The position numbers were made by a program, and so were the translations under genes. This document shows, in pieces, positions 19,386-22,678 of a stretch of 27,785 nt of DNA (position 1 is its first letter; the number at the start of each line of letters is the position of its first letter). The stretch is from the IMG/VR virus record IMGVR_UViG_3300034072_000915, positions 1 through 27,785 of that record. One strand, 5' to 3'. Under the pieces are notes generated by a model, which was given only the letters and a program-made list of their open reading frames with translations, did not search any database and was not told the origin of the DNA. This DNA is from a virus. Lineage: Duplodnaviria; Caudoviricetes.

Positions 19386-19867
19386 TCGTCACCGCCTGGC
19401 ACTACCTGCACGTTGATTTCTTCCGCGACATTGACCACGACCATATCAACGCTGTAGCGGTTGCCATTAAACAGCACCGGGCCACTGGCATTCGGTATCA
19501 AGTCGATGTTGTCAACCAGTTCCACTTCGATGATCACCGTGGCGTTGTCGTTGCTGATTGGGTCAATGTCCAGTGTCGGGTCTTCAAGGCCCAGTTCATC
19601 GCGTGGCCAGTTGCTGTCGAGTAGAAACGCGGCCAGCATGGCAAGCAGGTTGTAAGGTGCAACTTTTAGATGCGGAAAGTTTTCAATGACGATGATGGCG
19701 CGGTGCTTCCACTTCGCCACCTGATAGCCTGTGCCTAAGTCTTCACCGCTTAAAATGATGGTGCCGCCCTCTTGCCAGGCGTCAATGGTGTTGGCCGTGA
19801 CGTAGGGTTGCAGGCTACTCAGTAAAAATTCAGTCAGTTGCTGCAGCTGGGTTTTTGATTCGCTCAT
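19382..19867 (-). CDS. Tail completion protein (gpR-like)
   Basis: Acidic 161-aa ORF between the gpL-like and gpS-like genes. Confidence 0.75.
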   Translation of the reverse strand: MSESKTQLQQLTEFLLSSLQPYVTANTIDAWQEGGTIILSGEDLGTGYQVAKWKHRAIIVIENFPHLKVAPYNLLAMLAAFLLDSNWPRDELGLEDPTLDIDPISNDNATVIIEVELVDNIDLIPNASGPVLFNGNRYSVDMVVVNVAEEINVQVVPGGDE

Positions 19868-20325
19868 AATGAATGCACCCCTGCACGGCCAAGCCCCAGC
19901 AACAAACGCACCCCACGGTTTGAGTGCGCCAGAATGGCGTCCTGCTGGGCAGTGTCTTTGGCTTTGTTGTTGCCGGCTTCTTTTTGGTCCACGGCGGAAA
20001 AATACCCCAGCAAATCGGCATGGGAACGGGCATACACTGCACCCCGGTAAATGCTGATTTGCTGTTCGCTGAACTCAGGAACCAGGCCAACGCCCAGGGT
20101 TAAAATGACTTCCGTGTCTGCCGTGCTTCTCATGACAAATTGAATAATTTGCTGCTGAATTTCTGCAGCGCTGCGCGTGATGGCGTCGGCAATGGCGGCT
20201 TCTTCGAAATACTCAGGAATGCGCCGGTGCTGGCGAAATTCCTCGGTTGACAGTGCAGGCCAGCCGCTATCGGCATCAACCATGATGCTTTCTTGTGCCG
20301 GTGACTGAAAACCAAATCCGCTCAT
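19864..20325 (-). CDS. Head completion/stabilisation protein (gpL-like)
   Basis: GWPALS..EFRQHRRIP, YRGAVYARSHADL and a C-terminal GVHSL. Confidence 0.88.
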   Translation of the reverse strand: MSGFGFQSPAQESIMVDADSGWPALSTEEFRQHRRIPEYFEEAAIADAITRSAAEIQQQIIQFVMRSTADTEVILTLGVGLVPEFSEQQISIYRGAVYARSHADLLGYFSAVDQKEAGNNKAKDTAQQDAILAHSNRGVRLLLGLGRAGVHSL

Positions 20326-20430: not shown

Positions 20431-21195
20431 TTATTCCGGCTGGCTGTCGCTCTGCCGGTTTAACTCTTCAATTGCCCGCAACCGCATGGCAATTTTGTTT
20501 CGAACCGTTTTTACCTGGGCGTGCTTGTGCAGCTCTGCCGCTTTTTCTAAAAGCTGATCGGCACGTTTGAGCCGGTCCACATCGCCAACGTGGCTTGGCG
20601 CAATGTCGCCGTTTTTGGCCCGTAGTAAGGCAAGGCCGGCGAATTTGTAAAACTTGGCTGTGACTTGCTCGGGTAGTTTCCACTGCCCAACCACACGGTT
20701 AAACACGGTGCCGAAATATGGTTCGATGCTGTGGCCGTGCTCGGCTTGCAGCTCTGCCCAGTCAAAAACGGTGTCTGCGATAAAACCTGGCCATTTTCTG
20801 CGGATGCTTCCGGCCATTGGCTGTCCAAGCTCAATTGCAGCGAAGGCGAATTCAAGGGCTCTGCTGAGGTTACCGACGTCGAAAAGCCAGACAGTGCAAT
20901 AAGCGAAAATAGGGTTGTCGCTAACAGTTTTTTCATTGCCTTTTTCCTTGCGTTCATTCAGATAGGCTTCGACGATTGGCAGCCACTTGGGCAACAACAC
21001 GTCGCGTTTATGGGCGATTTTGTCCGCCCGTCTTTCAAATGCTTTGAGCCGTTTCAGGTCAGCATCGAGCTCAATCAGCTGTAAATGCAGACTAGGCGCA
21101 TATTCGGCGCTTCCGGTTAGCCTGACTTTTTCGAGTTGCTTTTCCGCGGTGCGGCTTTCCCGCCACGCGAGGATTTTTGCGCCGCCGACGGCTTT
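20431..21195 (-). CDS. Terminase small/endonuclease subunit (gpM-like), main body; probably expressed by -1 frameshift from 21569
   Basis: The frame is open from about 21204 to 20431: LHLQLIELDADLKRLKAFERRADKIAHKRDVLLPKW...VWLFDVG...W.LPEQVTAKFYKFAG...VKT. The first ATG/GTG/TTG is GTG 21000, which lies inside the conserved region. Confidence 0.85.
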   Translation of the reverse strand, partial: KAVGGAKILAWRESRTAEKQLEKVRLTGSAEYAPSLHLQLIELDADLKRLKAFERRADKIAHKRDVLLPKWLPIVEAYLNERKEKGNEKTVSDNPIFAYCTVWLFDVGNLSRALEFAFAAIELGQPMAGSIRRKWPGFIADTVFDWAELQAEHGHSIEPYFGTVFNRVVGQWKLPEQVTAKFYKFAGLALLRAKNGDIAPSHVGDVDRLKRADQLLEKAAELHKHAQVKTVRNKIAMRLRAIEELNRQSDSQPE

Positions 21196-21569
21196 TTTAA
21201 CTCTTCAGTGGCCTCTTTTAACTGCGCTGTCGCCTGGCCGATATCTTCCGCGCTGTACGCAAGCTGATTGGCGGTATCTTCCAGACCACCCGCTGCGCTG
21301 CTGATTTGCTCCGCAGCACCGGTGACTGCATCGGCTGCGCCTTCGACGGTGCTGGCGCTTGATTCAAGGTCTGATGCTGTGCGTTCCAGATCCGCTGTCA
21401 CTGTGTCGTTTTTCGGCTCTGTTTCAGCTGTAGCTGCAGCGATTTTCTTTGCTGCTTCGGCTAATTGTTCTTCGGATAACCCGGTGATGTTTACGCCTTG
21501 CGCAATCAGCTCTTTGGCTAATGCGCGCTGCGCTTCACGGCGCTTTTTAAAATTGGCAATGGCACTCAT
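21117..21569 (-). CDS. 150-aa coiled-coil protein; N-terminal part of the frameshifted small terminase
   Basis: ATG 21569 has an AGGA RBS. Basic N-terminus (MSAIANFKKRREAQ), heptad Ala/Glu/Thr region, TTA-AAA-AAG slippery site and a basic tail. Confidence 0.75.
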   Translation of the reverse strand: MSAIANFKKRREAQRALAKELIAQGVNITGLSEEQLAEAAKKIAAATAETEPKNDTVTADLERTASDLESSASTVEGAADAVTGAAEQISSAAGGLEDTANQLAYSAEDIGQATAQLKEATEELKKPSAAQKSSRGGKAAPRKSNSKKSG

Positions 21570-21655
21570 GGCTTTTCCTGCTGGTTTTTCTACACAATTC
21601 ATTGGATTGATTTGCCAGGCGCTATATCAGCGCCCGGCACTTTTTCAGCGGCCTG

Positions 21656-22678
21656 TTAAGGCGCTGGGCCGATATTGACCGCTGATTCATCTACAGCGGC
21701 GTAGGCCTGATATTCATCCACGGCGTAGCCTTCAAAGCGCCAGTATTTGTCTTCCCAGCGTTTGCGGTCTTCGACGTTTTCAGATTTGCGTGACCGGGTA
21801 CCCTTTTGCGTGTAGCAATGCAGGTTTTGCAGCATGGTCACCACGATGCGTTTACCCGGGAAGAATGGCGGGGTATAGGCCCGCAGACCGCCGATAGATT
21901 TGTCCATCATCTGGGCGGCAACGCGCTCCGTTGGTTTGTCTGCCTGATGCATCAGCTTGATTTGTGCAGCGGCAATTAAGTCGCTCCCCACCAGCACGAC
22001 CAGGCGCGGGTCGTTGCGGAACTGCTCAGGAATCAGTGTTAATTTGAGTTCGGTAACGATGGCATCCAGCGTTTTATATTCGCCTGCAGCCAGTTCACCA
22101 GTGGCATCCGGGTTAAAGTAAATGTCATCGGTCATCACCTGATCTGGCGCTTTTTCTTTTACCAGTTGGTGCCAGCCTTTGTTCACGTCCTGGCCTAACG
22201 GATTGGCAACAGGGTCTGTGTTGGCCGCCGCTGATGTGCCGTTAAAACCAACGCGCAGGATATCGAGTGCAAAACGCATGGTGGCGTTTTCGCTCATTAA
22301 GCGCATGAATTCGCGTTCACTGCCGGCGTTCGCCCAGACAGCCAGCGTTGCCCATGGCACAAATGCGCATGAATCGGTTTCTTTCAGCTCGTATTCGTTG
22401 CCGTCTACGTCTTGGCCAGTGGTAAATCTGCCCGCGGCTGATCGACCTGTGGCAATACCGGTGTTGCCGACACTGACTACCTGACCTTTAATCTGGTCGA
22501 CGTCCATTAAGGTGATCAGTTTTAAAAACTCTACCGAGTCCAGAATGGCGGCGCGTAATTTGGTTTCCATCGGGCCGGTCACAGCAAACTGCTTGCTTGG
22601 GTCCGGTGTTTCGTAAGCTTTGGCCATCGCGCTGCTGTAGGCCATCACGCAGGCTAATGCGGTTTTGGTTAAATTCAT
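21656..22678 (-). CDS. Major capsid protein, P2 family (gpN-like)
   Basis: ALDILRVGFNG, NPLGQDVNKGW, YKTLDA, PPFFP and C-terminal EGYAVDE. Confidence 0.96.
   Translation of the reverse strand: MNLTKTALACVMAYSSAMAKAYETPDPSKQFAVTGPMETKLRAAILDSVEFLKLITLMDVDQIKGQVVSVGNTGIATGRSAAGRFTTGQDVDGNEYELKETDSCAFVPWATLAVWANAGSEREFMRLMSENATMRFALDILRVGFNGTSAAANTDPVANPLGQDVNKGWHQLVKEKAPDQVMTDDIYFNPDATGELAAGEYKTLDAIVTELKLTLIPEQFRNDPRLVVLVGSDLIAAAQIKLMHQADKPTERVAAQMMDKSIGGLRAYTPPFFPGKRIVVTMLQNLHCYTQKGTRSRKSENVEDRKRWEDKYWRFEGYAVDEYQAYAAVDESAVNIGPAP

What the first reader, a model, noticed from the sequence alone, without database searches (positions are those of the whole stretch)
20431..21569. Small terminase apparently produced by a programmed -1 ribosomal frameshift
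Seen: the ORF from 21569 reaches TTA-AAA-AAG (A-AAA-AAG, 21198-21192). AGAGG lies 13 nt upstream, and GC-rich hairpin potential (GCGG-GAAAG-CCGC) lies downstream. The -1 frame is closed by a TGA a few codons before the site, then runs open through the gpM-like sequence, with no ATG/GTG/TTG until GTG 21000 inside the conserved region. Known: A-AAA-AAG with an upstream SD-like element and a downstream hairpin is the dnaX/IS3-family -1 signal; phage frameshifts are best known in tail chaperone, capsid and tail genes. Inference: two products at a fixed ratio, a 150-aa protein and a ~379-aa terminase fusion. I am not aware of this being described for a P2-type terminase.
Basis: partly seen in the sequence, partly recalled or inferred. 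Interest (0 to 1): 0.85.

Follow-up and report, generated by a model that had tools for sequence, protein, structure and literature searches.

The report
Phage terminase reached by ribosomal frameshift
In a whole group of P2-like phages of water bacteria, the gene for the small DNA-packaging subunit has no ordinary start of its own and sits behind a strictly conserved slippery sequence at the end of an unknown upstream gene, so it is likely made only when some ribosomes slip back one base, a control we found no description of for this protein.

Summary
The frame break and the A-AAA-AAG heptamer (21198-21192) are real and are neither an error nor decay. Of 178 distinct related loci, 104 form one clade (Rheinheimera, Alkalimonas, Shewanella, Pseudoalteromonas, Colwellia; isolated phages C5a and PY3). 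All 104 have an upstream ORF X ending in an in-frame A-AAA-AA(G/A) over an open gpM frame with no ATG/GTG/TTG for at least 24 codons. Seventy-two more distant loci have an ordinary ATG gpM; 2 are cut off. The codon before Lys-Lys varies (CTA, TTA, ATA, GTA, GCA) but always ends in A. Synonymous change switches from frame 0 to frame -1 at the heptamer. Best reading (0.85): a programmed -1 frameshift gives a 150-aa coiled-coil protein X and, probably at low rate, a 379-aa X-terminase fusion. Main rival: a non-AUG start at a conserved ATC behind GGNGG (0.08). No experiment shows the fusion. Seven literature searches found no such case, and this scan had not noted it on other DNA.

The parts
21656..22678 (-). 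Major capsid protein gpN (upstream gene)
   Evidence: PF05125 4e-97, phrog_70
21613..21639 (-). 12-bp hairpin between the capsid stop and ORF X, with no U-run behind it; likely an mRNA-stabilising or attenuating element
   Evidence: z -3.76; a strong hairpin at this place (z < -2 against mononucleotide shuffles) in 40 of 45 relatives, with different sequences
21567..21579 (-). Ribosome binding site (AGGA 21579-21576) and ATG of ORF X
   Evidence: conserved N-terminus M-S-A-I-A-N-F-K-K-R-R and purine-rich SD in relatives
21117..21569 (-). ORF X, 150 aa, the frame-0 product: basic N-terminal helix, variable middle, long acidic heptad-repeat helix ending at E-L-K-K, then a basic Ser/Lys tail
   Evidence: 172 homologues at E<=0.001; no specific Pfam or PHROG family; a model of a 189-aa homologue has helices 3-22, 35-46, 50-62, 94-163, mean pLDDT 66; charges
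21212..21216 (-). AGAGG, SD-like, 13 nt before the heptamer; a possible local stimulator, not conserved
   Evidence: 14-17 of 47 representatives have an equivalent
21205..21207 (-). TGA that closes the -1 frame just before the slip site
   Evidence: the -1 frame is closed 1-41 codons before the heptamer in all 104 clade loci
21192..21198 (-). Slippery heptamer A-AAA-AAG (Leu-Lys-Lys in frame 0)
   Evidence: 104 of 104 clade loci: A-AAA-AAG 102, A-AAA-AAA 2; 0 changes at six of the seven bases on a spanning tree of 89 junctions
21172..21186 (-). GGCGG (21186-21182), 7 nt, then ATC (21174-21172): Gly-Gly-Ala-x-Ile of the -1 frame; also the geometry of the rival non-AUG start, and a weak variable hairpin in some relatives
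20431..21192 (-). gpM small terminase frame (-1), 253 codons from the shift, full length relative to ATG-started relatives
   Evidence: PF05944 3.6e-28; phrog_74 4.5e-58, residues 16-249; alignment; model pLDDT 89.5, all-helical
20998..21000 (-). First canonical start codon (GTG) of the gpM frame, codon 65, inside a conserved helix
   Evidence: starting here loses phrog_74 positions 14-60 and cuts predicted helix 55-84
19864..20325 (-). Head completion protein gpL (downstream gene)
   Evidence: PF05926

Best explanation
The small terminase (gpM) of this P2-like phage clade has no canonical start for its first 24 or more codons and is likely made by a programmed -1 ribosomal frameshift at the conserved A-AAA-AAG that ends the coiled-coil part of the upstream ORF X. 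Inferred steps: ribosomes start at the ATG of X (21569). Most read through the heptamer and stop at 21117, giving the 150-aa protein X. A minority slip back one base with two tRNA-Lys and read on through a Gly-Gly hinge into full-length gpM, giving a 379-aa fusion. With no conserved stimulator, the rate is probably low (about one to a few percent) and differs between members. The likely purpose is a fixed small share of terminase-bearing chains. I favour (about even odds) a lambda G/GT-like arrangement in which plentiful X and rare X-gpM associate through the shared long helix, over pure dose control of gpM.
For: (1) Two clean classes among 178 distinct loci: all 104 complete loci at 57.7% identity or more have X plus the in-frame heptamer; 72 loci at 50% or less have an ATG gpM, mostly within about 15 nt of the capsid stop; 2 are cut off at the junction. 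The X loci are one branch (48 of 48 rows, SH-aLRT 99, quick tree) and include the isolated phages C5a and PY3. (2) The codon before Lys-Lys is CTA 55, TTA 32, ATA 9, GTA 7, GCA 1, always ending in A. Its first base changes 18 times on the spanning tree and its wobble A 0 times, whereas the 20 upstream wobble sites of X change 9-35 times each. Elsewhere in capsid and gpM only 806 of 2078 Leu codons end in A, and 12 of 31 Lys-Lys pairs are AAA-AAG. (3) Selection changes frame at the heptamer. Upstream, 344 of 679 changes are synonymous in frame 0 and 116 in frame -1. Between the heptamer and the conserved Ile, 19 of 124 are synonymous in frame 0 and 82 in frame -1 (expected 26% and 32%). After the Ile the counts are 77 and 160 of 370. 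(4) In Pseudoalteromonas obscura (L095) frame 0 stops right after the heptamer while frame -1 keeps V-T-G-G-A-H-I-L. (5) All 7 indels just after the heptamer are multiples of 3, including a 60-nt insertion open in both frames (L071). (6) X varies from 75 to 251 aa yet stays in frame with the heptamer in 97 of 98 loci that reach the capsid gene. (7) A_AA.A_AA.G is among the most shift-prone bacterial motifs (PMC4066793, passages). (8) The same phage has A-AAA-AAA-stop with an open -1 frame at its tail-chaperone gene.
Against: No experiment, ribosome profile or peptide shows the fusion. No conserved stimulator was found. A weak hairpin starting 5 nt downstream is strong in some members only, and the test was inconclusive: 34 of 47 fold better than a synonymous null, median z -0.67, and one control site gave 30 of 47. 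Without stimulators the best motifs shift about 0.3%, up to 3.7% with a good 3' context (PMC4066793, passages), so the yield may be small. GGNGG plus 7 nt plus ATC is a good start geometry (45 of 47 representatives pair with the anti-SD), and the ATC is nearly invariant (99 of 103). No natural in-frame X-gpM fusion was found (a weak search; none among the best 120 of 365 hits up to 492 aa). One locus (L038) has X broken upstream of the heptamer. The 104 loci are related, so counts are not independent events. The role of X has no direct support: no family and no fold match.
Confidence: 0.85

Rival explanations
1. gpM starts on its own at the conserved ATC (21174), 7 nt behind the SD-like GGNGG, giving a ~245-aa protein at low level. 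X is a separate overlapping gene and the A-run is only an enhancer or a Lys-Lys motif.
For: GGNGG pairs with the anti-SD at -5 kcal/mol or better in 45 of 47 representatives. The codon is ATC in 99 and ATT in 1 of 103 loci. The 7-nt spacing is kept in the six one-codon indel loci. The position is within about three residues of the ATG of ordinary gpM. Some database proteins are called from this codon (P0122, P0145).
Against: The codon is CTC (Leu) in 3 loci. L071 has no GGNGG before the ATC. The middle base of GGNGG changes 20 times like a free Gly wobble and is C in 67 of 89, A in only 15. Gly-Gly-Ala and Val/Ile upstream of the ATC vary as -1-frame codons, with an invariant GC inside the would-be spacer. 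The wobble base of the next codon (CTC) is about as fixed as that of ATC; both match Ser-Ser of the X tail, and both differ in L095, which has no tail. The rival does not explain the invariant in-frame heptamer. It could operate beside the frameshift.
Confidence: 0.08
2. The fusion is made by transcriptional slippage, RNA polymerase adding one A in the A-run, and not by the ribosome.
For: An extra A in the run would join the same frames; 2 of 104 loci have a longer run of As.
Against: The run is only 6 A in 102 of 104 loci, below the more-than-7 A cited for polymerase slippage (PMC3711429, passage). The run keeps its codon phase and its final G.
Confidence: 0.03
3. A shortened gpM starts at the first canonical codon (GTG 21000) or a nearby CTG/TTG, as most annotations have it.
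For: GTG at codon 65 in 44 of 104 loci; GenBank C5a and PY3 are annotated with short gpM genes.
Against: The first canonical start falls at 17 different positions from codon 25 to 124. Starting at codon 65 removes residues invariant or nearly so across both classes (S34, H36, D45, D57, K62, R63), loses phrog_74 positions 14-60 and cuts a high-confidence helix. The skipped part is under -1-frame selection.
Confidence: 0.02
4. Sequencing or assembly error, or an inactivating one-base deletion in a decaying prophage.
For: A homopolymer run at a frame break is a common artefact.
Against: The same break occurs in 104 distinct loci down to 58% protein identity, in two isolated phages, in 4 of 4 contigs of the likely source study and in divergent contigs of two other studies. 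No continuous form was found.
Confidence: 0.01

Closest known systems
Phage tail assembly chaperone frameshift (lambda G/GT, P2 E/E+E'; PMC3091744, passages)
   Same: Two proteins from one start with a shared N-terminus; -1 shift on a simple heptamer; P2 E/E+E' also lacks a downstream hairpin; morphogenesis gene; a short product and a longer fusion.
   Different: Here the site lies in the head and packaging operon between capsid and gpL, the extension is the whole small terminase, and X has no tail-chaperone homology. This phage has its own separate chaperone frameshift.
dnaX and IS3/IS911-family A_AAA_AAG signals (PMC3711429, PMC4066793, passages)
   Same: Identical heptamer read by two tRNA-Lys; as in IS3-family OrfA/OrfAB (recalled), the shift adds a further domain to a shorter N-terminal protein.
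   Different: No conserved upstream SD and no conserved hairpin or pseudoknot; not a transposase or polymerase subunit; in dnaX the shift shortens the protein.
Ordinary gpM of HP1/K139/P2-like phages (PF05944, phrog_74)
   Same: Same protein family, same place after the capsid gene, same length counted from the shift point.
   Different: Ordinary gpM has its own ATG next to the capsid stop (72 loci). Here a hairpin, a new gene X and a frame break stand between them.
Proposed recoding in terminase genes: translational bypassing in the Streptomyces phage Hau3 terminase (PMC5009743, passages); putative -1 shift in terL of Microbacterium phage vB_MoxS-R1 (PMC9030533, passages)
   Same: Recoding suggested for a packaging gene.
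   Different: Those are a bypass at a UUA codon and a single-genome guess in the large subunit on a non-standard motif. Neither is a clade-wide heptamer fusing an extra gene to a small terminase.

Membership tests
Bacterial programmed -1 frameshift (general) | X_XXZ_ZZN shift-prone heptamer in the frame of an upstream ORF | tested here: met
   A-AAA-AAG at 21198-21192; 104 of 104 clade loci
Bacterial programmed -1 frameshift (general) | -1 frame open and coding downstream, without its own canonical start | tested here: met
   253 codons, PF05944; no ATG/GTG/TTG before codon 25 in any of 104 loci
Bacterial programmed -1 frameshift (general) | Site conserved at synonymous positions; selection changes frame at the site | tested here: met
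Bacterial programmed -1 frameshift (general) | Transframe product shown by reporter, peptide or ribosome profiling | not testable with these tools
   no such data available
dnaX / IS911-type three-part signal | Conserved SD-like stimulator about 9-14 nt upstream | tested here: not met
   present in the window, but in only 14-17 of 47 representatives
dnaX / IS911-type three-part signal | Conserved hairpin or pseudoknot a few nt downstream | tested here: inconclusive
   no consensus structure; 6-7 bp stems 5 nt downstream in some members only; pseudoknots not modelled
Tail assembly chaperone G/GT frameshift | Located between the major tail and tape measure genes | tested here: not met
   lies between capsid and gpL
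Tail assembly chaperone G/GT frameshift | Homology of the short product to a tail chaperone family | tested here: not met
   no such hit for window X in Pfam or PHROGs, or among the 25 PHROG families shown of 31 for 77 homologues
Tail assembly chaperone G/GT frameshift | Short and long products share the N-terminus and co-assemble | not tested
   the shared N-terminus follows from the gene anatomy; the complex predictor was unavailable
P2 gpM small terminase (PF05944, phrog_74) | Profile match over the whole domain | tested here: met
   PF05944 positions 1-130 of 130, 98.6 bits against a cutoff of 29.4; phrog_74 positions 14-228 of 232
P2 gpM small terminase (PF05944, phrog_74) | Gene order: inverted portal and large terminase, scaffold, capsid, gpM, gpL | tested here: met
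   ORF X is inserted before gpM
P2 gpM small terminase (PF05944, phrog_74) | Packaging activity with the large terminase | not testable with these tools
   no assay; no solved relative by sequence

The most novel reading that the evidence does not exclude
This phage clade builds its small terminase as a mixed coiled-coil assembly: many copies of protein X with basic ends and a few X-gpM chains, in a ratio set by a ribosomal frameshift. That would be a G/GT-style stoichiometry switch that arose once in the DNA-packaging machinery, with X as a new packaging scaffold.
Probability: 0.4. Interest if true: 0.85.

Novelty: new variant of a known kind. Interest (0 to 1): 0.72.

Why it matters
It would extend programmed frameshifting in tailed phages from tail and capsid genes to a core DNA-packaging gene (gpM is one of the seven Peduoviridae hallmark proteins; PMC13100340, passages) across a clade infecting at least five genera. 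It would correct the annotation of this clade: databases call truncated gpM at scattered starts and X as hypothetical or as a chemotaxis protein. gpM has no solved relative and models as a TPR-like helical protein, so a natural coiled-coil fusion gives a handle on how many copies act and what they bind. Two cultured phages (C5a, PY3) make it directly testable.

Tried and rejected
Stimulatory hairpin: single-sequence folds were no better than shuffles. RNAalifold on 47 representatives gave about 0 kcal/mol in seven windows and -2 to -4 in four subclades. The synonymous-null test was inconclusive. Upstream SD: not conserved. Natural in-frame fusion: none found. Family or fold for X: only weak coiled-coil or tape-measure hits, two unnamed Atlas clusters at scores under 0.9, no viral fold match at E<=0.001. 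The idea that the N-terminal helix of X is a copy of the gpM N-terminal helix: hhalign pairs them, but at probability 2.8%, E 0.016, so it is only a lead. gpM fold: no PDB sequence match, no Foldseek match at E<=0.001, generic TPR-like matches up to Z 10.3 (rmsd 2.9, 102 aligned), which is within the range for common helical repeats. L262 looked like an X-type gap but is a frameshifted capsid gene. A DNA pattern for the junction found 85 viral loci, 65 of them gpM; the other 20 are mostly chance or opposite-strand matches. Expression: no RNA holder listed; raw reads were not available, only contigs. Promoter and terminator scan: nothing above chance. The careful tree did not finish; the quick tree is quoted, and it included the junction residues. 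Literature: searches returned no description of this site. 'Terminase' does not occur in the main text of PMC3711429, PMC10885494 or PMC4066793. Of the PMC3711429 supplements, two files were searched with no hit and file 1 could not be searched; its cluster tables might list this site. Only the first 300,000 of 449,034 characters of PMC5009743 are held. Subscription papers are not covered.

Full report
Setting. The window is most of an HP1/K139-type P2-like phage: portal and large terminase on the + strand; scaffold, capsid, gpM, gpL and tail genes on the - strand. The nearest named genomes are Rheinheimera, at 93-96% gpM identity.

Observation. ORF X (21569-21117, 150 aa) overlaps the gpM frame, which is shifted by -1, closed by TGA at 21207-21205 and open to 20431. 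A-AAA-AAG lies at 21198-21192 in the X frame as Leu-Lys-Lys. The first ATG/GTG/TTG of the gpM frame is GTG 21000, codon 65 after the shift. A tandem slip would give 126 + 253 = 379 aa. Only two in-frame A-AAA-AA(G/A) occur in 7465 codons of 24 window ORFs; the other ends the tail-chaperone gene. Four contigs from one study, possibly the source, match with no indel. Divergent contigs from two other studies bridge the site without a gap.

Relatives. Loci were gathered from phage records, viral contigs, species genomes and metagenomes. Of 283 loci with a gpM match, the window's own copy was skipped and 104 duplicates were dropped, leaving 178; the window is represented by an identical contig, L211. 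Of these, 104 have X and the in-frame heptamer, and all are 57.7% or more identical to the window gpM. Seventy-two have an ATG-started gpM, mostly within about 15 nt of the capsid stop, and are 50% or less identical. Two are cut off at the junction. On a quick maximum-likelihood tree of 84 rows the 48 X rows are one branch (SH-aLRT 99; midpoint root), which fits a single origin. Named members are Rheinheimera, Alkalimonas, Shewanella, Pseudoalteromonas and Colwellia, and the isolated phages C5a and PY3, so this is not decay.

The heptamer is under nucleotide-level selection. The codon before Lys-Lys is CTA 55, TTA 32, ATA 9, GTA 7 and GCA 1; the Lys pair is AAA-AAG in 102 and AAA-AAA in 2. A minimum spanning tree was built on 89 unique ungapped junctions (96 loci; 8 set aside, 7 for in-frame indels and 1 for a pattern miss). 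On it the first base of that codon changes 18 times and its wobble A never; upstream wobble sites of X change 9-35 times each. Controls: 806 of 2078 Leu codons end in A and 12 of 31 Lys-Lys pairs are AAA-AAG in capsid and gpM. These loci share ancestry, so the counts are not independent events.

The coding frame switches at the heptamer. In the 60 nt upstream, 344 of 679 changes are synonymous in frame 0 and 116 in frame -1. Between the heptamer and the conserved Ile the figures are 19 and 82 of 124; beyond it, 77 and 160 of 370. Natural variants agree. In P. obscura frame 0 ends right after the heptamer while frame -1 keeps V-T-G-G-A-H-I-L. Indels after the heptamer are +1 codon (5 loci), -1 codon (1) and +20 codons open in both frames (1). 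X ranges from 75 to 251 aa and reaches the heptamer in frame in 97 of 98 loci that include the capsid end; L038 is broken. The ATG of ordinary gpM aligns just after the shift point, so the -1 frame is a full-length gpM.

Downstream starts do not explain it. The first canonical start falls at 17 positions between codons 25 and 124. GTG 21000 would remove conserved residues, phrog_74 positions 14-60 and part of a confidently modelled helix.

The serious rival is a non-AUG start. GGNGG lies 7 nt before a nearly invariant ATC, pairs with the anti-SD in 45 of 47 representatives (anti-SD motif recalled), and some database records start there. Several results speak against it. The codon is CTC in 3 loci. 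L071 lacks GGNGG. The middle base behaves as a Gly wobble (20 changes; C in 67 of 89, A in 15). The residues before the ATC are conserved as -1-frame amino acids. The fixed third bases of ATC and the next codon match Ser-Ser of the X tail and differ in the one tail-less locus. The rival also leaves the heptamer unexplained. I give it 0.08, possibly as a second route.

Stimulators. The AGAGG equivalent is present in 14-17 of 47 representatives, and no consensus structure was found. The named hairpin starts 22-28 nt downstream. Some members can form a 6-7 bp stem 5 nt after the heptamer from GGNGG and CCUC, in different registers; the overall test was inconclusive. In E. coli the best V_VVA_AAG motifs shift about 0.3% without stimulators and up to 3.7% with a favourable 3' context (PMC4066793, passages), so a low and variable rate is the likely case. 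P2 E/E+E' also lacks a hairpin (PMC3091744, passages).

The proteins. A 189-aa X homologue is modelled as a short N-terminal helix, two small helices and a 70-residue helix ending at E-L-K-K (pLDDT 66, pTM 0.21). The ends of X are basic and the long helix is acidic. The shortest X keeps only the N-terminal helix and a few heptads (L149). It has no family or fold match. gpM models well as an all-helical, TPR-like protein. In the fusion the long helix would be followed by a conserved Gly-Gly and then gpM; in X it is followed by Pro and a Ser/Lys tail. A strong hairpin of varying sequence separates capsid and X in 40 of 45 relatives, and X has its own SD. So the clade has replaced the ancestral capsid-gpM adjacency with a hairpin, a new gene and a frameshift.

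Mechanism. Shown: anatomy, conservation and the frame switch of selection. Inferred: ribosomal slippage (0.85), low rate, fusion product. More speculative: X and X-gpM associate through the shared helix, as in tail chaperone G/GT (0.4); otherwise the shift mainly limits gpM dose, although conserved residues at both ends of X show that X itself is under selection.

What is known. The mechanism is familiar from dnaX, IS3-family elements and tail chaperones; the target is not. Seven searches found no such case. I read passages, not whole texts, of PMC3711429, PMC5009743, PMC4066793, PMC3091744, PMC13100340, PMC9030533 and PMC10612066, and a term search of PMC10885494 with no hit. The only terminase recoding mentioned was Hau3 bypassing and a speculative terL shift. 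One supplement of PMC3711429 could not be searched, and subscription journals are not covered. This scan held no look-alike sequence.

Verdict. Real, conserved, very probably a programmed -1 frameshift that supplies the small terminase. It is a new variant of a known kind, untested at the bench. Interest 0.72.

Noticed in passing
window 15403-15397 and 15397-15206 (-): The tail assembly chaperone gene (Phage_TAC_10, 15660-15394) ends GTA-AAA-AAA-TAA with the -1 frame open for 63 codons (phrog_7050, 1.5e-23) up to the tape measure gene: the usual G/GT-type frameshift. Its context resembles the terminase junction of L095 and L064.
   Followed up: partly
window 21639-21613 (-): Strong hairpin after the capsid stop, conserved in shape but not in sequence in 40 of 45 relatives, with no U-run; absent where the gap is only 8 nt (L149).
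   Followed up: partly
window about 21132-21126 (-): A second G-AAA-AAG near the end of the X tail (Ser-Lys-Lys) is well conserved; it may only reflect both frames, or be a minor second slip site.
   Followed up: no
window 21569-21510 versus 21183-21120 (-): The N-terminal helix of X looks like the first helix of gpM (hhalign probability 2.8%, E 0.016), which hints at origin by duplication of the gpM start.
   Followed up: partly
window 17057-16485 (-): The lysis gene is a pesticin-type lysozyme homologue (PF16754, 2.6e-43) rather than a common endolysin family.
   Followed up: no
window 4025-2184, 4678-3980, 5054-4680 (-): Extra ORFs after the baseplate genes: 613 aa and 232 aa with no Pfam or PHROG hit, and 124 aa with a weak Gp80/phrog_240 hit; also a 304-aa BRCT-domain ORF at 2044-1130 (phrog_3989).
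   Followed up: no
L262 1301-1938: Capsid gene split by a frame break in an ATG-gpM relative, probably an error or decay.
   Followed up: partly
L352 and L365: Two non-gpM viral loci match the junction pattern, with both frames open across it in L352 and a long open -1 frame in L365; possibly other frameshift sites.
   Followed up: no
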